Shown here piece by piece: positions 2,084 to 58,841 of a stretch of DNA of 64,000 bases. The DNA comes from an uncultured Candidatus Binatia bacterium (GTDB taxonomy: Bacteria; Desulfobacterota; Binatia; HRBIN30): assembly GCA_964534275.1 (NCBI GenBank), contig CAZHQG010000010.1, forward strand, positions 6,744-70,743, read 5' to 3'. Below the pieces are notes generated by a model. The model was not told where the DNA came from, ran no database searches, and was given only the letters and a program-made list of their open reading frames with translations. Position 1 is the stretch's first letter; every line of letters begins with the position of its first letter. A program made the translations under genes and the position numbers.

Positions 2084-2125
2084 ATCACCCTCGCTTCGTT
2101 TGCACCGCCACATGGCACTCCCTCC

Positions 2126-14720: not shown

Positions 14721-14794
14721 ACCTGGCCATGAGCACGGTGTGGTAACTGCGCTGGCCTGGGCATCGTGGTCCTAGGCCAAGGAGCTGAAGACAC

Positions 14795-15976: not shown

Positions 15977-15977
15977 C

Positions 15978-23740: not shown

Positions 23741-23864
23741 AAATGGGCAGTCCTGGTTGTCACTCTCGCGCGCGGAGGTGCCACGGATCGATCGTCGGCG
23801 GTCTCCCCTGACGCCGAAACGATCCGCTCGTGCGTATTTTGCTCACACTACTATAAGGGCCGTC

Positions 23865-42271: not shown

Positions 42272-42275
42272 CGCC

Positions 42276-43571: not shown

Positions 43572-44563
43572 GGGAGTGCAGCGTGGCAGAGTCTCGCCGA
43601 GGCCGGGGGACTGCTTCCGGCAAAGTGATTTTGCTCGGAGAGCACGCGGTCGTGTACGGGTTTCCCGCGATCGCGCTGCCGATCCCACGTCAGGTAACGG
43701 TCGAGCTCTCCTTCCGTTCCGAACCCTCCGGGTGTGTCGGGTACGGCACACCGCCAGCTCCTCCTGAAGCTGCCACCATCACACTACCCGACCTCCTGCT
43801 CCACGCGGGCACTCGCCTCGGTGTCGACCCGTGCGACCTCGAAGCCTCTGTCGCCTCCGACATTCCGCCTGGCATGGGCCTCGGAAGTTCCGCTGCACTC
43901 AGCGTCGCACTGCTGCGAGCGCTGGCTGATCTCACCGGCGTGCACCTTGGTCTCGCCAACCTCAACGCGCACGCCTACGCCCTCGAGTGTCTTTTCCATG
44001 GCGAACCCTCGGGCGTGGACAATACGACCGTCACTTACGGCACACTGTTGCGGTTCGTGCGGGGCGCCTCTCCGGAGCCACTCGAGGCAGCCGCTCCCCT
44101 GCATCTTGCCGTGGTGCTCGGAAAGCAACCCCGTCGCACACGCGCAGTCGTGGCGCGCTTGAACGCACAGCGCCAGGCAACGCCCGCGGCGGTGGACCGT
44201 GCGTTTGCCGCGATCGGCGAGCTCGCGAACCATGCTGTAGAAGCGCTCCGTTCTGGCGATCATGCCCTGCTCGGCGCCTGCATGAACGAAAATCACGAAC
44301 TCTTGGGCGCACTGGGCGTGTCGACCGACGAGCTTGATGCGCTCGTGGCCGAAGCTCGGCGCGCAGGCGCATGGGGCGCAAAACTCACTGGGGGCGGCCG
44401 CGGGGGGGCCATCGTGTGCCTGTGCCCGACGAACCGACCTCAACTCCTACAACACTTTGAACGGAAGGGCGTGCAAGCGTTTGCTGTCGACTGGACCCCT
44501 TCTTCAAGAGGTGCGTATGAACGACATGTTGCAGAACTCCCCACTCCCGACCGCAACGCTTGA
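43568..44563 (+). CDS. mvk: Mevalonate kinase.
   Basis: SGKVILLGEHAVVYGFPAIALPI and GMGLGSSAALSVAL. There is a 4-nt overlap with the HMGR stop. Confidence 0.8.
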   Translation: MRECSVAESRRGRGTASGKVILLGEHAVVYGFPAIALPIPRQVTVELSFRSEPSGCVGYGTPPAPPEAATITLPDLLLHAGTRLGVDPCDLEASVASDIPPGMGLGSSAALSVALLRALADLTGVHLGLANLNAHAYALECLFHGEPSGVDNTTVTYGTLLRFVRGASPEPLEAAAPLHLAVVLGKQPRRTRAVVARLNAQRQATPAAVDRAFAAIGELANHAVEALRSGDHALLGACMNENHELLGALGVSTDELDALVAEARRAGAWGAKLTGGGRGGAIVCLCPTNRPQLLQHFERKGVQAFAVDWTPSSRGAYERHVAELPTPDRNA

Positions 44564-46523
44564 GGAATCTTCGGCGGGTTGGGAGACCAAGCTCGACGAA
44601 GCGATCCGGCGGACCCAAGCATTCCTCCTGCGCCGCCAACAGGCCGACGGTTACTGGCACTTTCCGCTGGAAGCCAACGTCACCATGGATGCGGAATATA
44701 TCTTCTTCAACCGTTTCATGGGTCGTGACGCGAGACGTCAAGAGGTGCGGGTCGTCGACCATATGTTTTCGACCCAAGCGTCGGACGGTTCGTGGTCGCT
44801 CTACCCCGGCGCCCCCGGTCATGTCAGCCTTACAATCGAAGCGTACTTCGCCCTGAAACTCGCCGGCATTTCTCCGCAAGAGGAGCGCTTGCAGCAGGCT
44901 GCACGCTTCATTCGCGCCCATGGAGGTCTGGCAAAGGCAGGTGTGTTCACACGCTGCTTTCTCGCCTACTTCGGACAGTTTCCGTGGTACGGGCTGCCGG
45001 CGATGCCGGTCGAGCTCATTCTCCTGCCCCCGTGGTTTCCGATCAACATTTACGCGTTTTCGAGCTGGGCACGGGAAACCGTCGTGCCGTTGACAATTCT
45101 CATGGCCTTGAAACCTCAGGTTCCGCTGGCTCCAGGCGAGGGAGTCGACGAGTTGTGGCTCTCTCCGCCTACGCCCCAGGCGCTTGCCTTTCCCGGCAGT
45201 CGCGAGTGGATCAGCTGGAAGAACTTTTTCCTCGCCGTCGATTCCACCTTGAAGTTTCTTAGCCGCACGATCCCGTGGGCGCCTTTGCGACAGCGCGCGC
45301 TCCGGCGAGCAGAGCAGTGGATCTTGGAGCGCCAAGACCGCAACGGTGGCTGGGGCGGCATCCAACCACCCATGCTGAACTGCGTGATGGCGCTCAAAAC
45401 CCTCGGTTATCCCGATGACCATCCGGTGATTCGCAAAGGCATTCAGGCAATCGACGACTTCCTCATTGCCGACGGCGACTCTTTGATGATGCAGCCCTGC
45501 GTCTCTCCCACGTGGGATACCGCGCTCGGCGCAAAAGCCCTGCTCGACTCTGGCCTCAGCCCCGATCACCCTGCGCTGGCACGCGCTGCGGAGTGGCTCA
45601 TTCGCAATCAGATCTTCAAACCTGGCGACTGGAGCGTGTACAACCCGGATTTAGATCCCGGTGGCTGGGCGTTCGAATTTGCCAACGACTGGTATCCCGA
45701 CGTGGATGACACCGCGGTCATCCTCATGCAGTTGCAACGCATCGCCATCAAGGACCGCCACGCTCGACAACGTGCCATTGCGTACGGCCTGCAGTGGGCC
45801 CTTGGCATGCAAAGCCGCAACGGCGGGTGGGCCGCCTTCGATACCAACAACGACAGCGAGTTTCTCAACCAGATCCCCTTCGCGGACATGGAGGCGATGA
45901 TCGACCCGCCCACGGAAGACCTGACCGGGCGCTTACTGGAACTCATGGGGAACTACGGGTTCGACTTGCAAAGCTCCCGTGCACGCAAGGCACATCGGTT
46001 CTTGCTCCGCACCCAGCGCAGCGACGGCTCTTGGTGGGGGCGCTGGGGTGCCAACTTTATCTACGGCACGTGGTCGGTCCTCGCTGGCCTGCGGGCCATT
46101 CATGACGACTTGCACGCCCCGCACATCCGCCGCGCCGTTGCCTGGCTCAAGCAACACCAAAACTCAGACGGTGGTTGGGGAGAAACCCTCGCCTCTTACG
46201 ACAACGAGGCACTCGCGGGACGAGGAGAATCCACTCCCTCGCAAACGGCTTGGGCAATCCTCGGCTTGCTTGCCGGAGAAGACGGGGTGAGTCGCGAGGT
46301 TCTGCGCGGAGTCGAGTATCTCGTGCGGACACAAAACCCCGACGGCAGTTGGGACGAGCGATTGTGGACCGGCACCGGTTTCCCTCGGCACTTTTACCTT
46401 CGTTACGATGGCTACCGCATTTACTTCCCCCTGATGGCGCTGGGGCAAGTCCGCCAGCGCTTGCGGGAACTTCGCGGGGCACGCGCCCGAACTGCCGCGG
46501 AGTCGGCTGTCCACTCGCGTTAG
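44517..46523 (+). CDS. shc: Squalene-hopene cyclase.
   Basis: Multiple QW motifs (QxxDGxW / GGW) and the DxDDTA catalytic motif (WYPDVDDTAV). Start refined to MNDMLQNS within ORF 44334..46523. Confidence 0.9.
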   Translation: MNDMLQNSPLPTATLEESSAGWETKLDEAIRRTQAFLLRRQQADGYWHFPLEANVTMDAEYIFFNRFMGRDARRQEVRVVDHMFSTQASDGSWSLYPGAPGHVSLTIEAYFALKLAGISPQEERLQQAARFIRAHGGLAKAGVFTRCFLAYFGQFPWYGLPAMPVELILLPPWFPINIYAFSSWARETVVPLTILMALKPQVPLAPGEGVDELWLSPPTPQALAFPGSREWISWKNFFLAVDSTLKFLSRTIPWAPLRQRALRRAEQWILERQDRNGGWGGIQPPMLNCVMALKTLGYPDDHPVIRKGIQAIDDFLIADGDSLMMQPCVSPTWDTALGAKALLDSGLSPDHPALARAAEWLIRNQIFKPGDWSVYNPDLDPGGWAFEFANDWYPDVDDTAVILMQLQRIAIKDRHARQRAIAYGLQWALGMQSRNGGWAAFDTNNDSEFLNQIPFADMEAMIDPPTEDLTGRLLELMGNYGFDLQSSRARKAHRFLLRTQRSDGSWWGRWGANFIYGTWSVLAGLRAIHDDLHAPHIRRAVAWLKQHQNSDGGWGETLASYDNEALAGRGESTPSQTAWAILGLLAGEDGVSREVLRGVEYLVRTQNPDGSWDERLWTGTGFPRHFYLRYDGYRIYFPLMALGQVRQRLRELRGARARTAAESAVHSR

Positions 46524-46538
46524 CAGGGAGAGCTCACC

Positions 46539-48293
46539 GTGCCTTCGAGCGCCGAACTGGAAGCCGCGTACGCGCACTGCTGGCAAATCGCCTGCTCGCA
46601 CTACGAGAACTTCCCCATTGGCTCCTGGTTGCTCCCCCGTCATTTGCGGCGAGCGTTGGCAGCAATTTATGCGTTCTCACGCGTGGCGGACGACCTTGCC
46701 GACGAAGGCACGCGTCCCTCGCACGAACGACTGGCTGCCCTCGACGAGTGGGAACGACACCTCGAAGCGTGCTTTGCCGGCACGCCCACCCACCCAGTGT
46801 TTGTGGCGCTCGCCGATACCGTCCGGCAGTTCCAGCTACCCATCGAACCCTTTCGAGCCCTTCTCACGGCGTTCCGCTACGACGCCGACTTCCGGCCGTT
46901 CGCGACCTTTGCAGACTTGCTCGCGTATTGCCGTCACTCCGCAAATCCGGTCGGACATTTGGTGCTGTACTTGTTCGGCTATCGCGACGCGGAACGCCAA
47001 GCCTTGGCGGACGACATCTGCACCGGTCTCCAGCTCGCAAACTTTTGGCAAGACCTGGCGGTGGATGCCGCGAAAGGGCGCGTGTACTTACCGCTCGCGG
47101 ACTTGCAAGAGTGGCACCTCTCGCCCGAGATGCTCCTGGCCGGCAACCCACCACGCGAGCAATTACGGTCGCTCCTCGTCGTCCAGGTGGAGCGGGCGCG
47201 GAGTTTCCTCACGCGTGGCCTGGCCCTCGCCCGCCTCGTGGAACCCTCGCTCGCGCGCGAAGTCCGCTTGTTCGCTCATGGCGGGCTGGCCATTCTGGAT
47301 CGGATTGCTGCTGCGGACTACGATGTCTGGAGCCAGCGCCCTCGGCTTTCCCGGTGGGACAAAGCCCGCCTGCTCCTGCGCTTTGCACGGCCCATGGTCG
47401 GATCCACAACGAGTACGCGGGAGACCACTTCGGGTTCCTTACAACGGGACTATGCGTACTGCGCCGAGGTGACACGCCGCAGCTCGAGCAACTTCTACTA
47501 CGCCTTTCACCTGCTTCCGCCCGAGAAGCGGCAAGCACTTTGTGCCGTGTACGCTTTTTGCCGCTTCGTCGACGACATCGCCGATCGCAGCGACCCGAAC
47601 TGGTCGCCACGGGATGCGATCGCCCGCTGGCGCGAAGAAGTGGCGGCCGTGTATGCAGGGCGCCCCACACACCCCATCAGCCGAGCATTGGCGGACGCCG
47701 TGCAACGCTATCCCCTGCAGCAGCGATACTTCCAAGAACTGATCACCGGTGTGGAAATGGACCTAACGCGCCGCTCGTACCAGACGTGGGCCGACTTGCG
47801 CCAGTACTGCTACCGCGTGGCAAGCACGGTCGGCCTGCTTTGCATCGAAATTTTCGGGTACGAAAATCCTTCTGCCCGCCAATATGCCGTCGATTTGGGC
47901 ATTGCGTTTCAACTGACCAACATTCTCCGCGACGTCCGGGAAGACGCTGAACGCGGTCGCGTGTATCTGCCGCGAGCCGACTTGGAACAATTCGACTGCT
48001 CGGAACGCGACTTACTGAGCGGGCGCTACTCACCCCAGGTGGCTGCGTTGCTCGCCTTCGAGTGTGGCCGGGCACGTGCGTTTTATCTCCGCGCACGCTC
48101 TGCGCTCGCTCCCGAAGATCGCCGCACTTTGGCCCCGGCGGAAGCCATGCGATTGATTTACCAGCGCTTACTGGGCCGCATCGAAGCGCAAAATTTCAAC
48201 GTGTTCGGGCCGCGCGTCACCCTGCCTCGTTACGAAAAACTCTCGCTGGCGCTCGCCGCCTGGGGCCGTTCGCACTTGTCTCGTGCATTCTGA
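46539..48293 (+). CDS. hpnC/hpnD: Squalene/phytoene-synthase-family bidomain protein: an HpnC-like (hydroxysqualene synthase) N-terminal half fused to an HpnD-like (presqualene diphosphate synthase) C-terminal half.
   Basis: Two complete trans-isoprenyl diphosphate synthase head-to-head domains, each with YAFxRxxDDxAD and a second Asp-rich motif (AIYAFSRVADDLADE ... NILRDVREDAERGRVYLP, then CAVYAFCRFVDDIADR ... NILRDVREDAERGRVYLP). The 584-aa frame has no stop between them. Confidence 0.75.
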   Translation: MPSSAELEAAYAHCWQIACSHYENFPIGSWLLPRHLRRALAAIYAFSRVADDLADEGTRPSHERLAALDEWERHLEACFAGTPTHPVFVALADTVRQFQLPIEPFRALLTAFRYDADFRPFATFADLLAYCRHSANPVGHLVLYLFGYRDAERQALADDICTGLQLANFWQDLAVDAAKGRVYLPLADLQEWHLSPEMLLAGNPPREQLRSLLVVQVERARSFLTRGLALARLVEPSLAREVRLFAHGGLAILDRIAAADYDVWSQRPRLSRWDKARLLLRFARPMVGSTTSTRETTSGSLQRDYAYCAEVTRRSSSNFYYAFHLLPPEKRQALCAVYAFCRFVDDIADRSDPNWSPRDAIARWREEVAAVYAGRPTHPISRALADAVQRYPLQQRYFQELITGVEMDLTRRSYQTWADLRQYCYRVASTVGLLCIEIFGYENPSARQYAVDLGIAFQLTNILRDVREDAERGRVYLPRADLEQFDCSERDLLSGRYSPQVAALLAFECGRARAFYLRARSALAPEDRRTLAPAEAMRLIYQRLLGRIEAQNFNVFGPRVTLPRYEKLSLALAAWGRSHLSRAF

Positions 48294-48301
48294 GGAGCGC
48301 C

Positions 48302-49684
48302 GTGTCGAGCAAAACGCTTCCCCACTTGCCGAGGCCAAGGTTGCCTGTCGCCGTGATTGGCGGCGGTTTCGCGGGACTCGCGGCGGCCGTGGAACTGGCG
48401 CAGTCGGGCCTGCCCGTGGTGGTGCTGGAAGCTCGGCGGAAATTGGGCGGTCGGGCTGTTTCGTTTGTCGACGCGGCAACCGGCGACGAAATCGACAACG
48501 GGCAGCATGCCCTGATGGGTTGCTACCACGAAACCTTGCGCTTCCTCGAGCTCATCGGGTCGGGAACGAACCTTGTCCGCCAGGACGTTTTGCGCGTGCC
48601 GTACGTCGACCTTGCCAACGGCCGGCACGCGGTGCTCGAGGCGGGGCGTTGGCCGAGCCCGCTCCACATGGCTTCCGCGATTGCTCGCTTTCCCCTGTTG
48701 GAAGCACGGCAACGGCTAGAAGCCCTGTGGGGAGGGCTCAAATGTATGGCTCTGCGCCAGCGCAACGATCCCGTGTTGGCACACATCACGGTGCAAGAGC
48801 TCCTGGATCTCTGCCGACAGTCGAGCGAAACGCGCGCCAAACTTTGGCATCCGATCGTCATCGCGACGCTCAACGAATTGCCGGCACGTGCTGCCGCTCG
48901 GCCCTTCGTCGAGGTGCTGGCGCGCGCATTTTTTTCCGGCCAGCGCGACTCCCAGTTCGTTTTTGCGCGGGTTCCGTTGAACCGCCTTTACGTGCATCAA
49001 GCTACGCAACACCTGACCAAGTTGGGAGCAGTGGTCCACACAGCCGCCGTCGTCGAACGCATTTTGGTCGACGGCGATCGTGCACTCGGCGTGCGACTCC
49101 GTGATGGCTCGTTCGTGCCTGTCGCAGGGATCGTTTGCGCAGTTCCCGTCGACGTAGCACAGCGACTCCTCGCGCCGATCGGAGTGTCCATTCCCACTGT
49201 ACACTTTAGCCCGATTGTGTCCGTGCACCTGTGGTTCCGGGAGCGCCCACCGCTGCCAGCTTTCGTTGGCTTGCTCGGAAGCCACACGCAGTGGGTGTTC
49301 GACCGCTCCTCACTGTGGCGGGAACCACGCCCGTCGGCCGCTTCAGGGACGTATCTCGCTAGCGCCGTCATCAGCGCCGCCCACGAAGAAGTGCATTGGA
49401 CCGACGAGCGGCTTGTTACGACCGTCACCGAGGAACTGCGGCGTGCGTTTCCTGCCCTTGCTGACGTACGCTTGCACCACGCCAGCGTCGTGCGAGAAAA
49501 GCGCGCCACGCCCTCGCTCACGCCGGAATTCGAGCGGCAGCGCCCCGGAGCTCGCACGCCCATCAAGAACCTCGTGCTCGCGGGCGACTGGACCAATACC
49601 GGCTTGCCAGCCACCATCGAAAGCGCGGTCGCCAGCGCCCGCGAGGCCGTGCGCAACGTTGTCTTGCAACTCGTACACGCGTAG
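48302..49684 (+). CDS. hpnE: Hydroxysqualene dehydroxylase (FAD-dependent amine-oxidase family).
   Basis: VAVIGGGFAGLAAAVELAQSGLPVVVLEARRKLGGRA is the FAD dinucleotide fold. It sits directly after hpnC/hpnD. A GTG start is inferred in the ORF frame. Confidence 0.75.
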   Translation: MSSKTLPHLPRPRLPVAVIGGGFAGLAAAVELAQSGLPVVVLEARRKLGGRAVSFVDAATGDEIDNGQHALMGCYHETLRFLELIGSGTNLVRQDVLRVPYVDLANGRHAVLEAGRWPSPLHMASAIARFPLLEARQRLEALWGGLKCMALRQRNDPVLAHITVQELLDLCRQSSETRAKLWHPIVIATLNELPARAAARPFVEVLARAFFSGQRDSQFVFARVPLNRLYVHQATQHLTKLGAVVHTAAVVERILVDGDRALGVRLRDGSFVPVAGIVCAVPVDVAQRLLAPIGVSIPTVHFSPIVSVHLWFRERPPLPAFVGLLGSHTQWVFDRSSLWREPRPSAASGTYLASAVISAAHEEVHWTDERLVTTVTEELRRAFPALADVRLHHASVVREKRATPSLTPEFERQRPGARTPIKNLVLAGDWTNTGLPATIESAVASAREAVRNVVLQLVHA

Positions 49685-49697
49685 GATGAGGCAACGG

Positions 49698-50525
49698 ATG
49701 AAGACCTTTGCCGTGTTTGCTGCCTTGCCCTGGGAGTGTACGGCAGCGGTACAATGGCTCCAGCAAGTCGAGCGCGGGCGGACGAGCGGGTTCGTTTGGT
49801 GGCAGGGACGCGCCGCAGATCATCGCGTGCGGGTGGTCCGAACTGGCATCGGTGCTGAACGCGCTGCAGCCGCCGTCCGTGACACGTTTTCCCAATTCCC
49901 GTTCGAGCTCGCTGTGAGCACAGGATGTGCCGGTGGGCTCGTTCCCGCTCTGGAACCAGGGGCACTGGTCGTTGCGACGGAAGTCGTTTGCGACCACGAC
50001 GGAACCCGTTACGCGACGGCACCCCTTGACCAAGACGCGCTCCCCCCGAACCACTGGAAACTGTCCCTGCATTTCGGGCGACAACTGTGCGTGCGCTCCG
50101 CGCTCTCGACGGCGGCGGAAAAACAAGCTGCGGGCGTGCGCTTCGAAGCTCTTGCGGTCGACATGGAAAGCGCTGGCGTTGCCCGGAGTTCCACAGAACT
50201 CGGTGTGCCGTTCGTGAGCGTCCGGGCCATTCTCGACCCAACGGCGGCGGCCCTCCCGGGTACGGGCACGCTGCTCGATCCGACGACCGGACAGGTTCGC
50301 CCCTGGCAACTGTTCCGTGCCTTGGCAACGGGCGGCGGCGAGCTCTGGAGCGAACTCCGCGCCCTACAGCACTTCAAGCGCCAAGCACAAACCGCGCTTG
50401 GAATTTTTTTCCGTGTGTATTTTTCGAGCCTCGCGGGCAACACGCAAACCGCTTCCAACCGCGAAGCTCGCCATCATCACGAGGAGGAACCATGCGATTT
50501 CCGTTGCACATCACGACCGACATGA
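49698..50525 (+). CDS. hpnG: Hopanoid-associated phosphorylase/nucleosidase (PNP_UDP_1 family).
   Basis: AVSTGCAGGL...ALAVDMESAGVA...VRAILD is the MTA/SAH-nucleosidase-like signature. Start refined to MKTF within ORF 49215..50525. The 3' end overlaps hpnH. Confidence 0.7.
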   Translation: MKTFAVFAALPWECTAAVQWLQQVERGRTSGFVWWQGRAADHRVRVVRTGIGAERAAAAVRDTFSQFPFELAVSTGCAGGLVPALEPGALVVATEVVCDHDGTRYATAPLDQDALPPNHWKLSLHFGRQLCVRSALSTAAEKQAAGVRFEALAVDMESAGVARSSTELGVPFVSVRAILDPTAAALPGTGTLLDPTTGQVRPWQLFRALATGGGELWSELRALQHFKRQAQTALGIFFRVYFSSLAGNTQTASNREARHHHEEEPCDFRCTSRPT

Positions 50526-51520
50526 TTCGCTGGCAGCTCAAGAACTGGTGGCGCGGCAACAAGCGCTACCCGTATGTGTTGATGCTCGAGCCGCTGCATA
50601 CCTGCAATCTGGCCTGCATTGGCTGCTCGCCGGAACGGTACAACGGCGATCTCAAAGATCGCCTTCCGCTCGAACAGTGCCTTCAAGCTGTGGACGAGTG
50701 CGGCGCTCCGGTGGTTTCGATTTGCGGTGGAGAGCCCACGATCTACCCAGAGCTTCCAGAACTCGTGGAGGGAATCATTGCGCGGAAGCGGCACATTTAC
50801 CTGTGCACGAACGGCATTTTGCTGGAACGCTTCTACCAGCGGTCGCGTCCCCACAAGCGACTATCGATCAATGTCCATCTAGACGGCTTACGAGACACCC
50901 ACGATTTTGTCGTGAATCGCAAAGGGGTGTTCGACAAGGCCATTGCCATGATCCGCGAAGGTAAGCGCCGTGGCTACACAGTGTGCACGAACACGACGAT
51001 TTACCGGGAAACGGACATGGACGAAATCGAGGCCATGTGCGCGTTGCTCGCTGAAATTGGGGTCGACGGCATTCTGCTTTCCCCGGGCTACCACTACGAG
51101 AGCCTGACCGGCGATCATTTCCTTTACAAAAACGAGATCCACGAAAAGTTCCGCCGCGTGCTCGCGCTCGCGGAAAAATACCCGGTGTCGTCCACCCCTT
51201 TATTCCTCCAGTTCGCTGCGGGGCAGCGCGACTACCCGTGTACGCCGTGGGGCAACCCAACCCGCACCCCAAAAGGCTGGAAAGGCCCCTGCTATCTGAT
51301 CGCCGGCGCGTACTATCCGACCTGGAAAGAGTTTTGGCACGGCGTGGACTGGGAGTACTGGGAATCGCGGCGCGACCCGCGGTGCCAAAACTGCCTCATG
51401 CACTCTGGCTTCGAACCGTCGGTCATTCGCAAACTCGGGGAAAATCCGCGGGACGTGTGGACGATGATCAAATGGAACTTCTCCAATCCGCCGAAGCCCG
51501 CGCCAGCTGCAGGGCGCTAA
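50492..51520 (+). CDS. hpnH: Adenosylhopane synthase, a radical SAM enzyme.
   Basis: The CNLACIGC radical-SAM cluster motif (C-x3-C-x2-C) lies within MRFPLHITTDMIRWQLKNWW...YVLMLEPLHTCNLACIGCS, and a GAGGAGG RBS is 6 nt upstream. Confidence 0.85.
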   Translation: MRFPLHITTDMIRWQLKNWWRGNKRYPYVLMLEPLHTCNLACIGCSPERYNGDLKDRLPLEQCLQAVDECGAPVVSICGGEPTIYPELPELVEGIIARKRHIYLCTNGILLERFYQRSRPHKRLSINVHLDGLRDTHDFVVNRKGVFDKAIAMIREGKRRGYTVCTNTTIYRETDMDEIEAMCALLAEIGVDGILLSPGYHYESLTGDHFLYKNEIHEKFRRVLALAEKYPVSSTPLFLQFAAGQRDYPCTPWGNPTRTPKGWKGPCYLIAGAYYPTWKEFWHGVDWEYWESRRDPRCQNCLMHSGFEPSVIRKLGENPRDVWTMIKWNFSNPPKPAPAAGR

Positions 51521-51734: not shown

Positions 51735-53678
51735 TTACAGCTCCAACTGCGTACCGAGTTCCACAACGCGGTTTGCGGGGATCTCGAAAAACGCTGCGGC
51801 ACTGGGGGCGTTTCGGGCCAGGAGGATGTATAGGCGCTTCCGCCATTTGGCCATGGCCGAGCGACCGGTTGGCAGCAACGTCTCCCGACCCAAGAAGAAC
51901 GTCGTTGTCATCATGTCAAACGCCAAGCCCTTCGCCTGACAAAGACGCAGCACGAGGGGGACGCGTGGCTTTTCCATGAACCCGAAACGCGCCACGATGC
52001 GGTAAAATCCCGCACCAAGCTCTTGCACCTCGATTTTTTCCTTGTCCGGCACTTCGGGGCGCTTTTCAGCGAGAATCGAGAGCAACACGACGCGCTTGTG
52101 CAACGTGCGCGTATGCTTGAAGTAGTGCAATAACACCGCTGGAATGCCTCGGGGCGTCGATGTCATCACGATCGCTGTCCCCTCCACGCGCACCACCCGC
52201 TGGTTCTCCACATCCGCCAAAAACGCCCGCTCGTCCACGCTTGCACGTTCCAGCATCGCAGCTACCTCCGCCCGGCCCCGCTTCCACGTCGTGAGAATGG
52301 TGAACACCACCACGCCCACGGTAAGTGCAAACCAGCCCCCGTGAGCGAGCTTGGCCAGGTTGGCAATGAGGAAAGACAAGTCGAACAACAAAAACAGTGC
52401 GGCGATCAGCCCAGCCGCCGGAAGCGACCACGCCCAACGCTCTCGGGTCACCGCATAAAACAAAAGCGTCGTGGCTGTCATCGTTCCCGTCACTGCCAAC
52501 CCGTACGCGCCAGCCAGGGCACTCGACGATCCGAAGCCCACGACCAGAAGCAAGCACAAGGTGCCAAGCGCTACGTTGACTTGGGGGATGTAAATTTGCC
52601 CGGCTTGAGTCTCCGAAGTGTGAATAATGTTGAACCGGGGCAGGTATCCAAGTTGGGACGCTTGGTGAGTGAGGGAAAAGGCCCCCGAGATCAAAGCTTG
52701 CGAGGCAATAATTGTTGCCAAGGTTGCCAGCGCGACCAACGGATAGAGCATCCACGCGGGCGCCAGCTCGAAGAAGGGGTGGTTTACTGTACTTCCTCTG
52801 GCCAGCAACAACGCACCTTGGCCAAAGTAATTGAGCAACAGCGCAGGAAACACGAGCGCATACCAGCCCACGCGAATCGGCCGGGGGCCAAAGTGACCCA
52901 TGTCTGCATACAACGCTTCTCCGCCGGTGATGCACAATACGACCGAACCCAAGATGAGAAACCCGTGCACACCATTGCGAACAAAAAACTCGAGCCCGTA
53001 CCACGGATTCAACGCGTGCCAAACCGAAAGTTCCGCATGCGGTTGCTGCACAATGGCACGCAAGCCAAGCGCCCCGATCACCAGAAACCAAACCAACATG
53101 GTCGGCCCGAATACGGCCCCGAGACCTCCGGTGCCGTGACGCTGGACAGCAAACAGCAACACTAAAATGGCCGCAGAAATCGGCACCACCAGTGACTCGA
53201 ACGCATGCGTAGCCACGTTGAGCCCCTCGACAGCCGAGAGCACGGAGATCGCGGGGGTAATAATGCCATCTCCGTACAACAGCGCAGCACCAAACAAGCC
53301 GCACGAGATCAGAACCAAGCGCGAGAACGGCACGGTGCCCTCCCGAGGCACGACCAATGCCAGCAAAGCCAAAATGCCCCCCTCCCCCTCGTTATCGGCG
53401 CGCATGACAAAGACGAGATATTTGATCGAGATCACCACCGTCAGCGACCAAAACACCAGCGACAACACGCCCACCACGTTCGCGGGGGTGACGGCTACCG
53501 CATGCGGTCCCACGAAGCACTCGCGCACGGCATACAAGGGCGACGTTCCAATGTCGCCAAACACAACCCCCAAGGCAGCTAAGGCCAGTTGCAGGAGAGG
53601 AGATTCGCGGTGCGCTGCCTTCGTGCCTGCAGGCACACCGCCAAAGGTCGCCGAGTCCGCGGTCGTGGGACTGCTCAT
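51735..53678 (-). CDS. kup: KUP/HAK/KT-family potassium uptake transporter.
   Basis: LGVVFGDIGTSPLYA N-terminal motif and 12 predicted TM segments. Start refined to MSSPTTADS within ORF 51735..53807. Confidence 0.85.
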   Translation of the reverse strand: MSSPTTADSATFGGVPAGTKAAHRESPLLQLALAALGVVFGDIGTSPLYAVRECFVGPHAVAVTPANVVGVLSLVFWSLTVVISIKYLVFVMRADNEGEGGILALLALVVPREGTVPFSRLVLISCGLFGAALLYGDGIITPAISVLSAVEGLNVATHAFESLVVPISAAILVLLFAVQRHGTGGLGAVFGPTMLVWFLVIGALGLRAIVQQPHAELSVWHALNPWYGLEFFVRNGVHGFLILGSVVLCITGGEALYADMGHFGPRPIRVGWYALVFPALLLNYFGQGALLLARGSTVNHPFFELAPAWMLYPLVALATLATIIASQALISGAFSLTHQASQLGYLPRFNIIHTSETQAGQIYIPQVNVALGTLCLLLVVGFGSSSALAGAYGLAVTGTMTATTLLFYAVTRERWAWSLPAAGLIAALFLLFDLSFLIANLAKLAHGGWFALTVGVVVFTILTTWKRGRAEVAAMLERASVDERAFLADVENQRVVRVEGTAIVMTSTPRGIPAVLLHYFKHTRTLHKRVVLLSILAEKRPEVPDKEKIEVQELGAGFYRIVARFGFMEKPRVPLVLRLCQAKGLAFDMMTTTFFLGRETLLPTGRSAMAKWRKRLYILLARNAPSAAAFFEIPANRVVELGTQLEL

Positions 53679-53997
53679 CGGTGGAATCCTACCGTTTCCG
53701 GTCCCCGCAAAGTTCCAGTCGTTTTGCCCCCTGTTGGCGTCCGACACTCTTGGTTGCCCGGAGGGAACGTGACCACGTTCGTGCAGTGCCGGCCCCCTGA
53801 CCCGCAACTGGCTCGAAACGCCACTTCTGCTTCTGCATCGCTTTCTTCACGTACAACAATTTCTCGGCGCCCCGCTTCCCTCGCGTGGTGAACAGCCATG
53901 GCCGTACATCGATGAGTCTGTAACCCAAGCACGAGCGCCAAGCGGCGCGCAAGGGCGGGCCAAATCTGCGCCCGCAAAAAAGAAGACAACTTATTTA

Positions 53998-54026
53998 TTG
54001 ACATCGGCACACTACCTGACGTAAAG
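53998..54026 (+). promoter_or_regulatory. Putative sigma70-like promoter (TTGACA -35 with a weak -10) in an AT-rich patch upstream of the 986-aa secreted protein gene.
   Basis: cttatttattgacatcggcacactacctgacgtaaag. The -35 is a perfect hexamer, and the -10 match is weak. Confidence 0.25.
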
Positions 54027-54090
54027 AACCATGCGCGTATGGGAACAAACCCATAGCAAGGAACAAATTTCCGTTTCGGGGGTCGCCGAG

Positions 54091-56991
54091 ATGAGAGAAA
54101 CGATGCGTCACGTGGGGAGGGTCGCCGGCCTATGGGCCATTGTGCTCGTGTGCAGTGCGCTGCCGTTTCGGTCGTTAACTGCACAAAGTTGCACCCAAGG
54201 GCTGTTTGCCAACAAGTGCATTCCCGGTGGAGGCTCGAAAACGACCGACTGCCACCTCGAGTGGCTCGTGCCTTCAATGCTCCTCCCTGAGTCACCTAAA
54301 TTTACGGCCTCGGGCTTCCCGAAAAACAAGTACGTCTGTTACGAAGGGGATCCGCGTTGTGACCTGGACCCCGACTTGAGCAACAAGAGCTGCACGTTTC
54401 CCGTGCGCCTGTGCATCAACAACCAGGACCCGCGCTTTGCCGGAAAATGCGCTCCGTCGAGCCTAAACGCATTCGAAGTCAAAAAGCCTAAGGCAACCAG
54501 CATCGATCCGGCCGATGTGGCAAACTTGGCTGCCTTGGAAACCGCAGCGAGTGCTGGGTTTGGTTTGACCGTGATGCGGCAAAACACCCCCACGACGGCA
54601 GGAAGCTCGAACGCCACGGCAAATCTTTGTAGCGCTCCGGTACCGGTGGTCGTACCTCTCAAGCTAAGCACCACGGGCAAAATCCGGCCAGGAAAACGGG
54701 CCCTCCGAGTGATCGCCCGATCGAGCGGTGGTCTTCTGGACCCTGACTCGCTCGTGCTCCAGTGCTTCCCGAGTACGTGCGGAGATGGTGTCATCCAGAC
54801 CGACCACGAGACATGCGACGACGGGAACCGAACGAACGGTGACGGCTGCGATCAGGGTTGCCAAATCGAGTTGCCGACACCAACACCCACACCGACGGCG
54901 ACAGGGTCTCCGCAACCAACTCCGACACCGACCGAAACCGCAACACCGACCTTCACGGCAACGGACACGCCAACTCGAACACCGACGGTCACGAAGACGT
55001 TCACGCCGACGCGCACCGACACGCCCACCCAAACGCCGACGCCCACTCATACCCCGACCCGTACCGACACGCCGACCAAAACAATGACCCCCACCCGGAC
55101 GGCAACTCCCACCAGAACCCCCACGTCCACCAACACGCCAACGAGAACATCCACGCCAACCCGAACGTTTACTCCGACGCATACATTCACTCCGACGGCA
55201 ACCTTCACACCCACACCGCCGCCCGAAATTTACCTGGACTCGCCAGATCACGGAGTGTTCACCACGGCCAGCACGGCAACTGTGACCGGGCACGTCGTGA
55301 ACCCCGTGCCGGGCCAGGTGGTGAAGATCAACGGCACGACCGTATGCTCCGGGCCGTGCACCAACTTTAGCTTGAACGTCCCCTTGGACGCCGGCGCCAT
55401 CTTCAATCCGGTGCTCGCCGAACTCACCGTACCGGCCACCGGATTCAAGGCACGTGACCGCAGGGTGATCATCCGCGGGCAGTCGGTGGCCGACGGTGCC
55501 TTCTCCATTAACGCCTTAGGCATGCGCATCAACGACTCGGGCTTCGACAAACTCGAACCGGTCATTCAAGGGCTGATTCCGCTTGACCTTGCCCAGCTTT
55601 TGCCTCCAGGCATGTTGATCACCGACGACAATATCTGTGTCGTTAGTTTGTTCGGGGCTTGCGCGGGGGGCATTGATAAAGTTTACGTTTGCAACCCACC
55701 CGGCAGCGGGTGCGCACCAGGCGACCGGCCCTCGATCTCGGGATTCTCGGTCAACATCGATTCGCAAAGCGGCTACGTGCAGCTTGACTTGACACTGTAC
55801 AACGTGCGGCTGCGCCTGTACATTGTCGGGTTTGGGGTGGTCCCCGACTGTGGACTCCGGGTTACATCCAACTCCGCACTCATCCGTAGCAACCACACAT
55901 TGGCTCCTGGCTCTCCCGACCCGAGCTACCTTGACGTGAACCAGCAAGGGGACGTCCAAGTCTCCTTCTCGAATTTCAATGCAACCATCGAAGGTGGTTT
56001 TACGTGTGACATCTTGGACTTCCTCGCCCCCCTGTTCGTCGACCTCGAGCAAACCGCACGTGATCAGTTGGTGAACTACCTCCGCGACCCAGACGGCCCT
56101 GGGCCACAGGACTCCGTGATAGCCGATGCAATGGAAACGGCCCTCGCCAACCTGTCGATCGCCGGAGCCATTGGTGGAGCGCTGGGCGTGCAACTGGATG
56201 CCCCGTTCAACTTTGTCAGCCCGGACAACCAAGGCATCACCTTTGGCGTGAACGCCCGGATCATGTCAACCGACAAACCTCCTTACACCCCGGACTTCAC
56301 AGCCTCGCTGCACGTGCCGGAGGCGTTCCCCTCGTACGGTACCACTACGCCCGTACAAAACCTGCCGTACCACATGGCCATCAGCCTCGGCACTTCGGCC
56401 ATGAACCAGCTCCTCAAGGCACTCACGGAAGAGGGGATCCTGAACATCGACATCACACAGATCGACCTTGGCTCCGGGCCGGTGCAAATCACCTCCGACC
56501 TGCTCGCCTTGTTCTTGCCGGAGTTCGGCAATCTGCCCTCGGGTACGCAGCTACGCATCCGCATCGAGCCCACGATCGCTCCGGTGCTCACGGGCAACCT
56601 CGGTCCGAACCCGGGCGACTTGGCGGAACTGAAGATCGCGCACCTGAAGATCTCGATTCTGTCGCTGGACAACTCGACGCTATACCTCAGCGGCGCAGTG
56701 GATGCCCGGGCTGGCCTGCAGCTCAGTTACGTGGCTGCGACCAACTCGATCAGCTTCGTCATCAGCAACATCAACCCCAGCGACGTGACCACAGTGCTGC
56801 TGCAAAACGCGATCGGCGTGAACGAGAACGACCTCCAATCGCTCGTACCGCAACTGGTGCAGCAGTTCCTGCCGTCGTTGGCCGGCGGTTTGGGGTCCCT
56901 GCCGCTGCCCTCGCTACTTGGCCTACAGCCAGTGGGCGTCGAACTGTCGCGGCTTGGTCAGGTGATTACCATCTTCCTGAACTTCCAGTAA
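54091..56991 (+). CDS. Large secreted protein with a signal peptide, a Cys-rich N-terminal region that includes a Myxococcus-type cysteine-rich repeat ([29 protein letters not shown]), a TPTxTPT linker, and a roughly 600-aa C-terminal domain.
   Basis: [31 protein letters not shown] is a signal peptide. The CGDG(V/I)..(G/D)EECDDGN..NGDGC motif is present. A roughly 110-aa TPT linker is nearly identical in style to the one at 5945..8419. The ORF opens at 54031. Confidence 0.75.
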
Positions 56992-57020
56992 CCGCGAGCA
57001 CGCAACCTGCCGTTCCAGGC

Positions 57021-57053
57021 GGCGGAGAGCCAACGCTCTCCGCCGCTTTTTTT
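57021..57053 (+). terminator. Rho-independent terminator downstream of the 986-aa secreted protein gene.
   Basis: ggcggagag-ccaacg-ctctccgcc forms a 9-bp perfect stem and is followed by gcttttttt. Confidence 0.65.
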
Positions 57054-57109
57054 CACTTCTCGACAAGCGGAGAAATAAACTCGAAGTTTTTTCCGTCTTC
57101 CCCGGCCGC

Positions 57110-57649
57110 ATGACGAGTATGGTTTTCGACGGCACGCAGGGGTGGAACGGCAACCAGCAACCAGACGCTGCAAGCACTCCTGGAAGCGGCGCTAACTCGC
57201 TCGCACTGCTGACCAGCGAGGTGTTACTGCCCTCCCAATACTTCACACCGTTCTCGGAGCGCGTTCTTTCGCCGGAACAGCGCCTCATGTTGGCAATTCT
57301 CGAGGATGCCGTGTACACGGTGTTGAAGTACGCCGGCTCACGCAGCAGGCGAGCCCGCCGGCTGGTGCGCGACGCAGAGCGTTGGATGGCAAGAAGCGAA
57401 CCGTGGTGGCTGTTTTCGTTCGAGAATATCTGTGCGGTGCTGGGTTTGGAGGCCGAGGCTGTTCGCGATCGCCTGCGTCGACTCCAGCTCCGTGCCGAGC
57501 GGGAAGGGTCTACCGGGCTCTCGCGCTTCGCCAATCAGCACCGAGTTGTCGGACGCCAGCACCGCGTCGTACTCTCTCCCGCAGAGCGACGTCGACTCCG
57601 CGCCCGCCAAAAAGCTCGCGAGCAACGGCGCCAACGATCCTCGCCCTGA
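57110..57649 (+). CDS. Hypothetical protein, paralog of 35574..36002.
   Basis: Shared blocks LLPSQYF, AILEDAV, RDAERWM and WLFSFENICAVLGLE. The Arg-rich C-terminal tail is ERRRLRARQKAREQRRQR. Confidence 0.55.
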   Translation: MTSMVFDGTQGWNGNQQPDAASTPGSGANSLALLTSEVLLPSQYFTPFSERVLSPEQRLMLAILEDAVYTVLKYAGSRSRRARRLVRDAERWMARSEPWWLFSFENICAVLGLEAEAVRDRLRRLQLRAEREGSTGLSRFANQHRVVGRQHRVVLSPAERRRLRARQKAREQRRQRSSP

Positions 57650-57722
57650 GCACCCTGTTGGCAAGACCAACAAGGTCCCGGGAAAGACGGGTTGACGTCG
57701 GGGCTGCACTGCGGTTCCATGC

Positions 57723-58841
57723 ATGCGCACAGCCCTTCGGGCTCGAATGCAAGGAGGTGCGCGTATGGCTTCTCACCAGCGCTGCTTCGTTGGCGCCCTG
57801 GCTGTCCTTGGCTGTCTGCTCCTGAGCAGTTGCAGCAGTCGGGCCCCTATGCCGCAAGAACGACCGCCTCACGAGGCATCGGCCATTCGTTTCGGAATCA
57901 TGACCCCCACCGATGGCGCTCGCTACGAGGACATCGTGCGCGCGTGGCAAGAGGCGGAACAGCTCGGGTGGGACAGTGCCTGGCTGAATGATCATTTCAT
58001 GCCGGTGTGGGGGGACACCGACGCGAACCAGTACGAAGCATGGACTCTTCTCGCTGCACTGGCGGCACAAACTCAAAAGATGCGCATTGGAGTGCTCGTA
58101 ACAGGCAACACGTACCGCAACCCGGCACTCCTCGCCAAAATGGCAGCGACCGTGGACGAGCTTTCCCGTGGCCGTCTCGATCTCGGAATCGGCGCCGGCT
58201 GGTACCGCAAGGAACATTTTGCCTACGGCTTTCATTACGGCACTGCACGGGAACGAGCGGAGCGACTCGAAGAGGCATTGCAGGTGTTGCGGAAACTGTG
58301 GGGAGAACCGCACCCTTCTTTTCGCGGGAAGTATTACTCGTTGTACCGAGCGCCCTTTGCCCCACGAGGGGTGCAGCACCCACGCGTCCCGATCGTTGTC
58401 GGCGGGCAAGGGAAGAAACTGATCGTACCCTTGGTCGCTCGCTACGCCGATGCGTGGAACGCCCCGGTGCAAGTCGACGCGAAGGGGTTTGCCGAGCGCG
58501 TCGAGCTCATCCGCAAGGAATGCGTTCGCATCGGGCGTAGCGATTGTCCCACTCGCTTTTCGAAAATGTTTGCCCTGGTGACCATTTCCGACGTCCCCTT
58601 GGTCGGACCGGCCATCCGGACTGCCGCAAGTGTGCTCCCCGGCGTCGATCGCGGCACCGCACGCCATCTCTTAGCTGGTTCGCCTGCTGCAATCGCAGGG
58701 CAAATCGTCCCGTTCATTCACGCTGGATGCAACGAGGTCATCGTGAGCTTTTTGCCACCGTTCGATTCCGAAACCATTCGGCGCTTCACATTCGAGGTGA
58801 TTCCACGGGTGCGTGCAGCAGCACAACAAGCATCGAGCTGA
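57723..58841 (+). CDS. LLM-class flavin/F420-dependent oxidoreductase with an apparent N-terminal lipoprotein/signal sequence.
   Basis: GWDSAWLNDHFMP...NPALLAKMAATVDELSRGRLDLGIGAGW is closely similar to the LLM at 29408..30346. The N-terminus ALAVLGCLLLSSCSS resembles a lipobox. An alternative start at about 57849 (MPQERPP) would remove it. Confidence 0.7.
   Translation: MRTALRARMQGGARMASHQRCFVGALAVLGCLLLSSCSSRAPMPQERPPHEASAIRFGIMTPTDGARYEDIVRAWQEAEQLGWDSAWLNDHFMPVWGDTDANQYEAWTLLAALAAQTQKMRIGVLVTGNTYRNPALLAKMAATVDELSRGRLDLGIGAGWYRKEHFAYGFHYGTARERAERLEEALQVLRKLWGEPHPSFRGKYYSLYRAPFAPRGVQHPRVPIVVGGQGKKLIVPLVARYADAWNAPVQVDAKGFAERVELIRKECVRIGRSDCPTRFSKMFALVTISDVPLVGPAIRTAASVLPGVDRGTARHLLAGSPAAIAGQIVPFIHAGCNEVIVSFLPPFDSETIRRFTFEVIPRVRAAAQQASS

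What the first reader, a model, noticed from the sequence alone, without database searches (positions are those of the whole stretch)
54091..56991. Second TP-linker secreted protein carrying a Myxococcus-type cysteine-rich repeat
The N-terminal Cys-rich region ends in [28 protein letters not shown], the repeat typical of Myxococcota surface proteins. It is followed by a TPTxTPT linker of the same style as in the 824-aa protein, and then a roughly 600-aa domain of unknown fold. A clean rho-independent terminator follows at 57021-57053. It shares its linker type with the operon at 0.4-8.4 kb and its Cys-motif style (CxxDxDC) with paralogs A, C and D, which suggests one surface-protein repertoire and hints at the taxonomy of the source.
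Basis: partly seen in the sequence, partly recalled or inferred. Interest (0 to 1): 0.55.

Follow-up and report, generated by a model that had tools for sequence, protein, structure and literature searches.

The report
Secreted bacterial BPI-like lipid-binding protein
This gene encodes an exported modular protein whose large "unknown" C-terminal part is predicted with high confidence to be a bacterial relative of the human lipid-carrying proteins BPI, LBP and CETP, joined by a threonine-proline spacer to a cysteine-rich head; that is a useful annotation, but bacteria are already known to have proteins of this kind.

Summary
The ORF (54091-56991, +; 966 aa), the cysteine-rich repeat, the Thr/Pro linker and the terminator are all real. 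The repeat passes both curated models: TIGR02232 at 40 bits against a cutoff of 20.8, and DUF4215 at 29.5 against 27. The "600-aa domain of unknown fold" is now assigned. It is an Ig-like beta-sandwich followed by a BPI/LBP/CETP-type double-TULIP lipid-binding domain. The AF2 model has pLDDT 89 and pTM 0.84. Foldseek matches BPI at E 6e-20, LBP at 3e-19 and CETP at 2e-15. Of 58 family members, 18 hit Pfam LBP_BPI_CETP_C; the four re-scanned score 26.6-41.9 bits against a cutoff of 23. The family is large (373 clusters at E<=1e-30) and has no NCBIfam model. Most members look like lipoproteins. This one has a signal peptide, a disulfide-rich N-module with no fold match in the PDB, and a 115-aa (Thr-x)n spacer instead. 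The source is a Binatota (order HRBin30) relative, not Myxococcota. The protein is not related to "paralogs A, C, D". The most likely function is a tethered envelope or extracellular lipid carrier, with the ligand unknown. It is a new member of a known kind, of moderate interest.

The parts
54091..54183 (+). Sec-type signal peptide (aa 1-31): a basic n-region, the hydrophobic core [16 protein letters not shown], and a likely SPase I site LTA|QS. There is no canonical lipobox.
   Evidence: Read directly from the sequence. No signal-peptide predictor was available. Orthologues P0002, P0003 and P0005 have equivalent signals ending AHA|QS or VQA|QS.
54184..54759 (+). N-terminal disulfide-rich module (aa 32-223, 10 Cys) with no recognisable fold or family.
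   Evidence: AF2 model mb546380b1f0b has pLDDT 80.5 and pTM 0.80. Foldseek against the PDB gives a best E of 0.045 and TM <= 0.27. Pfam, NCBIfam and PDB sequence searches give no match. The module also occurs as a stand-alone ~200-240 aa protein, for example HRbin30_02269.
54760..54876 (+). A single cysteine-rich acidic repeat (TIGR02232 myxo_disulf_rpt / Pfam DUF4215). The literal motif lies at 54778-54861 and contains 4 Cys.
   Evidence: TIGR02232 scores 40.0 bits against a cutoff of 20.8. DUF4215 scores 29.5 bits against 27. The repeat also matches pappalysin-1 residues ~865-899.
54877..55221 (+). (Thr-x)n Thr/Pro linker, 115 aa (aa 263-377).
   Evidence: It is 48% Thr and 23% Pro. The TxT count is 53 against 25.6 +/- 2.7 in shuffles (z 10.2), with zero TT dipeptides. 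At the DNA level there are only weak, degenerate tandem repeats. Its dN/dS against HR30 is 0.115, making it, together with the N-module (0.098), the least constrained of the parts for which the ratio could be computed.
55222..55533 (+). Ig-like beta-sandwich (Glucodextran_B-like), aa 378-481, placed directly before the TULIP domain.
   Evidence: Pfam Glucodextran_B matches at E 1.2e-4 here and in 56 of 58 family members, best 1.5e-10. The model is all-beta with pLDDT 94-98 over this stretch. Foldseek matches glucodextranase 1ug9 at E 7e-4.
55534..56988 (+). BPI/LBP/CETP-like double-TULIP domain (aa 482-966): two helix/sheet/helix barrels joined through a central sheet. It is strongly acidic (net charge -27).
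   Evidence: AF2 model mf45cc464d0e3 has pLDDT 89 and pTM 0.84. Foldseek matches BPI 1ewf at E 5.9e-20 (TM 0.63 normalised to target), LBP 4m4d at 2.8e-19, CETP 2obd at 1.7e-15, and P47/OrfX more weakly. The family profile's best PDB sequence hit is BPI 1bp1 at E 0.017.
56374..56988 (+). The C-terminal barrel, equivalent to Pfam PF02886 (LBP_BPI_CETP_C). It includes the conserved S-x-x-(F/M)NQLLK helix.
   Evidence: 18 of 58 family members hit PF02886 at E <= 0.1. The four re-scanned (P0021, P0019, P0045, P0056) score 41.9, 39.6, 30.6 and 26.6 bits against a cutoff of 23, over profile positions 39-236 of 238. The window protein itself does not reach E <= 1. It is 43-45% identical over its full length to those members.
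57017..57055 (+). Intrinsic terminator: a 14-bp GC-rich hairpin plus a T-run, starting 26 nt after the stop codon.
   Evidence: The scan found a 14-pair stem with 10 GC pairs. It folds at -28.9 kcal/mol with z -6.78, and 0 of 200 shuffles fold as well.

Best explanation
The gene encodes an exported, monocistronic, five-part protein. In order, the parts are a Sec signal peptide, a disulfide-rich N-module with no recognisable fold, one DUF4215/TIGR02232 cysteine knot, a 115-aa (Thr-x)n spacer, and an Ig-like sandwich followed by a BPI/LBP/CETP-type double-TULIP domain.

Shown or predicted:
- The domain architecture.
- The BPI-like fold of the C-terminal 485 aa.
- Membership of a large, unnamed bacterial family whose default form has a short N-terminus carrying a lipobox or lipobox-like Cys a few residues before the Ig domain.

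Inferred:
- After export and disulfide formation, the double-TULIP domain binds lipid or other hydrophobic molecules in its tubular pockets. It picks them up from, or delivers them to, a membrane, as CETP, LBP and Bdellovibrio TipA do.
- The protein stays tethered. Most family members would be tethered by an N-terminal lipid anchor. In this lineage the tether would be the N-module plus a long extended spacer, which replace that anchor.
- The ligand is unknown.
- The strongly acidic TULIP surface argues for a carrier role (CETP-like) rather than BPI's cationic, LPS-directed killing.
For: Fold:
- The AF2 model has pLDDT 89 and pTM 0.84.
- The top five Foldseek PDB hits are all BPI, LBP or CETP at E 6e-20 to 2e-15 and cover both barrels. 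The bacterial TULIPs P47 and OrfX come next.

Sequence:
- The family profile's best PDB hit is BPI. A second, independent profile hits LBP over the same barrel.
- PF02886 is hit at E <= 0.1 in 18 of 58 members, and the four re-scanned exceed Pfam's gathering cutoff.

Export:
- A signal peptide is present. Cys counts are even in every extracytoplasmic module: 10, 4, 2 and 6.

Family anatomy:
- 90 of 194 full-length members have a short N-terminus with a canonical lipobox.
- A further 50 have a short N-terminus with a Cys at the same place but no canonical lipobox.
- 54 carry N-extensions. Of those 54, 24 have DUF4215-like repeats, 24 have PT/S linkers, and 12 have the window-type N-module.

Constraint and transcription:
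- dN/dS is 0.04 in the Ig and TULIP parts.
- The gene has its own terminator.

Precedent:
- TipA is a bacterial BPI-like double TULIP that binds lipids and membranes. Double TULIPs fused to beta-rich domains have already been noted (bioRxiv 10.1101/2025.09.09.675085).
Against: - No lipid binding, cavity geometry or localisation could be tested.
- The window protein itself does not hit PF02886 or PF01273. No family member hits the N-terminal BPI model PF01273.
- No conserved neighbouring gene points to a pathway.
- The tethering role of the N-module is pure inference. The module also exists as a free-standing small protein, so it may have a function of its own.
- Whether the protein stays in the periplasm or leaves the cell is unknown.
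Confidence: 0.6

Rival explanations
1. It is an antibacterial or predatory effector. Like human BPI or Bdellovibrio TipA, the double-TULIP domain would attack or strip lipids or LPS from the outer membranes of other bacteria.
For: BPI is the best structural match. TipA is secreted into prey and destabilises bilayers. The family is frequent in Myxococcota MAGs, a phylum with predatory members.
Against: The TULIP region is strongly acidic: net -27 here, family median -48. BPI's LPS-directed action depends on a cationic N-domain (established knowledge). Most family members look like self-anchored lipoproteins, which is not expected of diffusible effectors. There is no TipB-like partner gene, immunity gene or secretion-system gene nearby. 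Binatota are not known predators (PMC8262859).
Confidence: 0.12
2. It is a hopanoid or isoprenoid-lipid carrier that serves the adjacent mevalonate and hopanoid biosynthesis cluster.
For: In the window, squalene-hopene cyclase, fused SQS_PSY, and HpnE-, HpnG- and HpnH-like genes end 2.5 kb upstream. This arrangement is conserved in HR30 and in the JGI and Logan relatives. TULIP proteins carry sterol esters and terpenoids, for example CETP, and JHBP, which appears among the structural matches.
Against: A divergently oriented Kup K+ transporter gene separates the two, and the TULIP gene has its own terminator. The adjacency is lost in more distant family members with the same architecture. No neighbour cluster is shared by more than 11 of the 80 family loci, and none of the 15 largest (listed by example ORF sequence only, not annotated) was recognisable as a hopanoid gene.
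Confidence: 0.1
3. It captures hydrophobic growth substrates such as alkanes, fatty acids or other lipids for the downstream catabolic genes.
For: The genes downstream are a luciferase-like monooxygenase, an acyl-CoA dehydrogenase, a P450, a TetR regulator and an RND adaptor. This order is conserved in close relatives. Binatota are predicted alkane degraders (PMC8262859).
Against: A strong terminator and an unrelated 179-aa ORF separate the gene from those downstream genes. This context is not conserved in distant members.
Confidence: 0.1
4. This is the first reader's view: a Myxococcus-type adhesin or structural surface protein, part of one repertoire with the 0.4-8.4 kb operon, with the C-terminal domain only a scaffold.
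For: It carries a DUF4215/TIGR02232 repeat. It has the same period-2 Thr linker style as the 824-aa protein. It contains an Ig-like domain.
Against: It has no homology to the operon's proteins. There is only one copy of the repeat. The best-conserved half of the protein is a lipid-binding fold. The source is Binatota, not Myxococcota.
Confidence: 0.08

Closest known systems
Eukaryotic BPI / LBP / CETP / PLTP family (Pfam PF01273 + PF02886; PDB 1BP1/1EWF, 4M4D, 2OBD)
   Same: It has the same predicted two-barrel double-TULIP fold over ~485 aa (Foldseek E 6e-20 to 2e-15). The C-terminal barrel is similar at sequence level in family members (the four re-scanned score 26.6-41.9 bits against a cutoff of 23). 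It is extracytoplasmic and has a signal peptide.
   Different: - It is bacterial.
- An Ig-like domain, a PT spacer and a Cys-rich head precede the TULIP domain.
- No match to the N-terminal BPI model PF01273 was found.
- It is strongly acidic rather than cationic like BPI's N-domain.
- Structural-alignment identity is only 10-14%.
Bdellovibrio bacteriovorus TipA/TipB (bioRxiv 10.1101/2025.09.09.675085)
   Same: It is a secreted bacterial BPI-like double TULIP. A beta-sandwich is associated with the TULIP, here fused at the N-terminus. The preprint already notes double TULIPs fused to beta-rich domains.
   Different: There is no separate TipB-like partner gene, and the gene is monocistronic. 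Whether the Ig domain clamps the N-terminal sheet as TipB does was not testable. The N-module, DUF4215 repeat and PT spacer are absent from TipA. No sequence comparison with TipA was possible because its sequence was not held.
DUF4403, predicted bacterial full-length BPI homologue (Levine 2019, PMC6791001)
   Same: It is a bacterial protein predicted to be a pseudodimeric double TULIP of ~460 aa.
   Different: No family member hits the DUF4403 Pfam model at E <= 0.1. This family instead hits the eukaryote-derived PF02886 model directly.
TIGR02232 myxo_disulf_rpt / Pfam DUF4215 repeat proteins
   Same: One repeat scores above both curated cutoffs.
   Different: There is a single copy rather than an array. 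The host is Binatota rather than Myxococcota. The repeat is a minor part (about 4%) of the protein.

Membership tests
TIGR02232 / DUF4215 cysteine-rich acidic repeat | Score at or above the curated model cutoffs | tested here: met
   TIGR02232 scores 40.0 bits against 20.8. PF13948 scores 29.5 bits against 27.
   Only one stretch matches. The closest genomes are bacterium HR30 and Binatia. The repeat also matches pappalysin-1.
BPI/LBP/CETP double-TULIP superfamily | Two tandem helix/beta-sheet/helix barrels joined by a central sheet, covering the full length of BPI | tested here: met
   This rests on a predicted structure only. The AF2 model has pLDDT 89 and pTM 0.84. Foldseek aligns 523-558 columns to BPI, LBP and CETP at E 6e-20 to 2e-15, with TM 0.63-0.65 normalised to BPI.
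BPI/LBP/CETP double-TULIP superfamily | Sequence match to Pfam PF02886 (C-terminal domain) | tested here: inconclusive
   The window protein has no hit at E <= 1. However, 18 of 58 family members hit at E <= 0.1, the four re-scanned score 26.6-41.9 bits against a cutoff of 23, and the window protein is 43-45% identical to them over its full length.
BPI/LBP/CETP double-TULIP superfamily | Sequence match to Pfam PF01273 (N-terminal domain) | tested here: not met
   No hit in the window protein or in any of the 58 members at E <= 0.1. Only the structural alignment covers this barrel.
BPI/LBP/CETP double-TULIP superfamily | Hydrophobic tubular pockets that bind lipid | not testable with these tools
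TipA/TipB-type system | A separate beta-sandwich adaptor gene in an operon with the TULIP gene | tested here: not met
   A terminator follows immediately after the gene. The next ORF (179 aa) has no signal peptide and no Pfam match. No conserved neighbour was found across 80 loci.
DUF4403 bacterial BPI homologues | Match to the Pfam DUF4403 model | tested here: not met
   It is not among the families hit by any of the 58 members at E <= 0.1.
Bacterial lipoproteins (the default form of this TULIP family) | A lipobox Cys at the end of the signal peptide | tested here: not met
   The window protein has LTA|QS and no canonical lipobox. Of 194 full-length relatives, 90 have a canonical lipobox. The test used a regex only, not a dedicated predictor.

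The most novel reading that the evidence does not exclude
The Ig + double-TULIP family could be the closest bacterial sequence relative of the eukaryotic BPI/LBP/CETP proteins. It has at least 373 clusters at 50% identity and is found in MAGs labelled Binatia, Myxococcota, Halieaceae, Thermodesulfobacteriota, Acidimicrobiales, Spirochaetales and others. On this reading it would be a previously unrecognised class of tethered, acidic lipid shuttles of the diderm envelope. In the HRBin30 lineage the lipid anchor would have been swapped for a new disulfide-rich fold on a long Thr-x spacer, possibly to serve hopanoid or other isoprenoid lipid traffic next to the hpn cluster.
Probability: 0.15. Interest if true: 0.65.

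Novelty: new member of a known kind. Interest (0 to 1): 0.4.

Why it matters
It turns a protein annotated as "hypothetical", "cysteine-rich repeat protein" or, wrongly, "Anti-sigma-I factor RsgI2" into a testable lipid-binding candidate. It also flags a sizeable bacterial family with no NCBIfam model that links to eukaryotic BPI/CETP by sequence as well as by fold. That bears on where the BPI-type double TULIP originated and on how uncultured diderm phyla such as Binatota move lipids outside the cytoplasm. Finally, it shows that the "Myxococcus" repeat cannot be used on its own to infer taxonomy.

Tried and rejected
- **Paralogs in the window.** BLASTP and a filter-off HMM of the N-module found none. 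The operon proteins A-D are a separate paralog family.
- **CxxDxDC motif.** The regex does not match this protein.
- **Conserved gene neighbourhood.** Clustering ORFs from 80 genome loci gave no neighbour shared by more than 11 loci. Contexts of P0006, P0009 and P0010 all differ. The hopanoid and catabolic neighbours are conserved only in near relatives.
- **N-module fold.** Foldseek against the PDB gave nothing significant. A PDB sequence profile matched only the repeat, to pappalysin, and the low-complexity linker.
- **NCBIfam.** No model matches the TULIP part or four family members.
- **Rfam.** No match at gathering threshold anywhere in the window.
- **Exact-sequence lookup of the window protein.** Not on record.
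- **Literature.** Searches for PF02886 and DUF4215 found nothing on bacterial members.
- **Promoter scan.** No sigma-70 consensus site in 53600-57800.
- **Tandem-repeat origin of the linker.** Only weak, degenerate DNA repeats.
- **Cavity analysis.** Model coordinates are not exposed to scripts.
Full report
**Observation.** A single long ORF occupies 54031-56991 on the + strand. It aligns with the N-termini of the 90-91% identical orthologues P0002 and P0003 and has a G-rich stretch 11 nt upstream.

The literal string [28 protein letters not shown] lies at aa 230-257, nt 54778-54861. It passes both curated models. TIGR02232 myxo_disulf_rpt scores 40.0 bits against a cutoff of 20.8. Pfam DUF4215 scores 29.5 bits against 27.

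A 115-aa linker follows at aa 263-377. It is 48% Thr and 23% Pro, with strict period-2 Thr spacing: 53 TxT pairs against 25.6 +/- 2.7 in shuffles (z 10.2), and no TT at all.

The terminator is real. A 14-bp hairpin at 57017-57048 is followed by a T-run. It folds at -28.9 kcal/mol with z -6.8.

Base composition is typical of the window. Comparison with the HR30 orthologue gives dN/dS of 0.07 overall and 0.035-0.044 in the C-terminal half, although dS is saturated. This is a real, constrained gene.

**What the "600-aa domain of unknown fold" is.** A search with aa 372-966 found 102 relatives. Most are stand-alone proteins of 600-630 aa, and a few carry precomputed PF02886 (LBP_BPI_CETP_C) hits.

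Each of the 58 members of alignment A1 was then scanned on its own against Pfam. Glucodextran_B, an Ig-like sandwich, matched 56 members. PF02886 matched 18 at E <= 0.1. The four that were re-scanned score 41.9, 39.6, 30.6 and 26.6 bits against a gathering cutoff of 23, over profile positions 39-236 of 238.

The family profile's best hit among all PDB sequences is human BPI. The match is E 0.017, with family positions 416-610 aligned to BPI residues 258-447, and includes a conserved (F/M)N...E.G.L helix. An independent profile built from the multidomain orthologues hits LBP over the same barrel.

An AF2 model of aa 372-966 built on A1 is confident, with pLDDT 89 and pTM 0.84. It shows an all-beta domain (residues 8-110 of the model) followed by two helix/long-sheet/helix units.

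| Foldseek PDB hit | E-value | Note |
|---|---|---|
| BPI 1ewf | 5.9e-20 | TM 0.63 normalised to BPI |
| LBP 4m4d | 2.8e-19 | |
| BPI 1bp1 | 1.0e-18 | TM 0.65 normalised to BPI |
| CETP 2obd | 1.7e-15 | |
| P47, OrfX | weaker | bacterial TULIPs |
| Der f 7, SPLUNC1, JHBP, Takeout | weaker | single-TULIP proteins |

I conclude that aa 378-481 form an Ig-like sandwich and aa 482-966 form a BPI-like double-TULIP domain. This is a predicted structure, not a solved one.

**The family.** An exhaustive profile search of 1.84 billion cluster representatives gives 373 proteins at E <= 1e-30, 1322 at <= 1e-10 and 3470 at <= 1e-3. The weaker tiers include hits that match only the Ig domain.

In species-representative genomes the family occurs in MAGs labelled Candidatus Binatia, Myxococcota, Polyangiaceae, "Deltaproteobacteria", Halioglobus and Haliea, Thermodesulfobacteriota, Acidimicrobiales, Spirochaetales and Acidobacteriota.

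No NCBIfam model matches it, and it does not hit DUF4403.

The 194 full-length members divide as follows:

| N-terminal form | Members |
|---|---|
| Short N-terminus, canonical lipobox Cys about 8 residues before the Ig domain | 90 |
| Short N-terminus, Cys at the same place, no canonical lipobox | 50 |
| N-terminal extension of more than 100 aa | 54 |

Of the 54 extended members, 24 carry DUF4215-like repeats (1-7 copies), 24 have PT/S-rich linkers, and 12 have the window-type N-module. The default form of the family therefore looks like a lipoprotein-anchored Ig + double TULIP. The window protein is a lineage-specific variant in which the anchor has been replaced.

**The N-terminal half.** The signal peptide (aa 1-31) has a basic n-region, a 16-residue hydrophobic core and LTA|QS. 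I read this from the sequence, as no predictor was available. There is no canonical lipobox.

The N-module (aa 32-223, 10 Cys) has relatives that are stand-alone proteins of ~200-240 aa or parts of other proteins, including HRbin30_02269 in the HR30 genome. Its AF2 model is reasonably confident (pLDDT 80.5, pTM 0.80), but Foldseek finds nothing significant in the PDB (best E 0.045). Pfam, NCBIfam and PDB sequence searches also find no match. The module has no recognisable fold or family, and its function is unknown.

Cys counts are even in every module: 10, 4, 2 and 6. That fits disulfide formation outside the cytoplasm.

**Context and source.** The gene is monocistronic.
- Upstream, on the opposite strand, lies a Kup K+ transporter gene.
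- Beyond that is a mevalonate and hopanoid cluster: HMG-CoA reductase, GHMP kinases, squalene-hopene cyclase, fused SQS_PSY, and HpnE-, HpnG- and HpnH-like genes.
- Downstream, after the terminator, come a conserved 179-aa ORF with no family, a luciferase-like monooxygenase, an acyl-CoA dehydrogenase and a P450.

This exact order recurs in bacterium HR30 (90% identity over the C-terminal query; 83% over the full protein in a codon alignment) and in JGI and Logan contigs (97%). It does not recur in more distant members with the same architecture. Across 80 family loci, no neighbour cluster spans more than 11 loci. Neighbourhood therefore gives only weak, lineage-local hints.

NCBI leaves HR30 unclassified. 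The Binatota study places order HRBin30 in that phylum and reports that its genomes came from thermal springs (PMC8262859). Further family members are labelled Candidatus Binatia. The source is therefore most likely a Binatota (HRBin30) organism, not a myxobacterium.

The 824-aa protein (5945-8419, - strand) does share the period-2 Thr pattern (z 11.5; z 8.5 in its last 110 aa). The resemblance is more than compositional. However, the same linker style joins several unrelated N-modules to the TULIP domain in relatives. It is a lineage-typical spacer, not evidence of shared function.

The CxxDxDC link fails. The regex does not match this protein. BLASTP and a filter-off profile search find no similarity to the operon proteins A-D. 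Those four are 27-35% identical to one another and form their own family with no Pfam match.

**Mechanism.** Shown or predicted: the export signal, the domain order, the BPI-like fold and purifying selection.

Inferred: the double TULIP binds lipids or other hydrophobic molecules in its tubular pockets and exchanges them with membranes. [quoted passage not shown]

The family's usual lipid anchor implies a tethered, cell-associated role. In this protein the N-module plus the roughly 115-residue extended spacer would provide the tether or the targeting.

The TULIP region is strongly acidic, with net charge -27 here and a family median of -48. That contrasts with BPI's cationic LPS-binding N-domain (established knowledge). 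It argues against a BPI-style bactericidal mechanism and for a carrier role.

The fused Ig domain recalls the TipB beta-sandwich adaptor and the fused beta-rich domains noted in the TipA preprint. Whether it gates the N-terminal barrel could not be tested. The ligand is unknown, and both the hopanoid and the hydrophobic-substrate readings rest on non-conserved neighbourhood alone.

**Comparison and novelty.** Bacterial TULIPs are already described: YceB, P47 and OrfX, DUF4403, DUF2140 and DUF2993 (PMC5507252, PMC6791001). A bacterial BPI-like double TULIP has been solved (TipA). This protein is therefore a new member of a known kind.

What is new here is modest:
- The fold assignment for a sizeable family with no NCBIfam model, one member of which is mis-annotated as "Anti-sigma-I factor RsgI2".
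- A sequence-level link to the eukaryote-derived PF02886 model.
- The lipoprotein default architecture of the family.
- The Binatota-specific head, with no recognisable fold, on a Thr-x spacer.

**Verdict.** The fold assignment is high-confidence, the function is inferred, and the interest is moderate.

Noticed in passing
window 863-8419 (- strand): An operon of four paralogous, signal-peptide-bearing, Cys-rich proteins: A 863-2113, B 2126-3190, C 3236-4606 and D 4524-5948. They are 27-35% identical to each other and have no Pfam match. Upstream of them is an 824-aa protein with a ~550-aa PT/S-rich region and a dockerin/EF-hand-like [13 protein letters not shown] motif at its N-terminus. None is related to the finding protein.
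   Followed up: partly
window ~39600-51520 (+ strand): A contiguous mevalonate-pathway and hopanoid biosynthesis cluster. It contains GHMP kinases, an FMN_dh-type IPP isomerase, HMG-CoA reductase (42276-43571), squalene-hopene cyclase (44334-46523), a fused double SQS_PSY (46539-48293), an HpnE-like amine oxidase (48062-49684), an HpnG-like PNP_UDP_1, and an HpnH-like radical SAM + DUF3463 (50087-51520). It is syntenic in HR30 and in JGI relatives.
   Followed up: partly
window 57110-57649 (+ strand): A 179-aa basic ORF with no signal peptide and no Pfam match, directly after the terminator. It is conserved in position in HR30 (181 aa) and in the JGI and Logan relatives. Its function is unknown.
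   Followed up: no
window 12738-17411 (+ strand): A PrkA (AAA_PrkA + PrkA), DUF444 (YeaH-like) and SpoVR-like three-gene operon.
   Followed up: no
window 23598-25061 (+ strand): An archaeal-type S-adenosylmethionine synthetase (Pfam PF01941, E 2e-119) in a bacterial genome.
   Followed up: no
L081 5827-8730 (bacterium HR30, BEIG01000030.1): The GenBank orthologue is named "Anti-sigma-I factor RsgI2". This is very likely a mis-annotation driven by the low-complexity Thr/Pro linker, since the protein has no anti-sigma domain.
   Followed up: partly
L082 5987-12182 (GCA_016307145.1): Two tandem paralogs with the same five-part architecture (P0007 at 964 aa, P0006 at 959 aa), followed by two Band_7/SPFH genes.
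   Followed up: no
window 55534-56988, and family alignment A1: The TULIP region is extremely acidic across the whole family, with net charge from -23 to -63 and a median of -48. This is the opposite of BPI's cationic N-domain and is unexplained. It may indicate cation-bridged membrane contact.
   Followed up: partly
L088 6001-6594 (HR30, BEIG01000076.1); L090 6001-6723: The N-module plus DUF4215 repeat also occurs as a separate small gene. In L088 it sits between a TetR regulator and an FMO-like monooxygenase. In L090 it sits directly after a 1352-aa PD40/Tricorn-like protein. The module is therefore mobile between architectures.
   Followed up: partly
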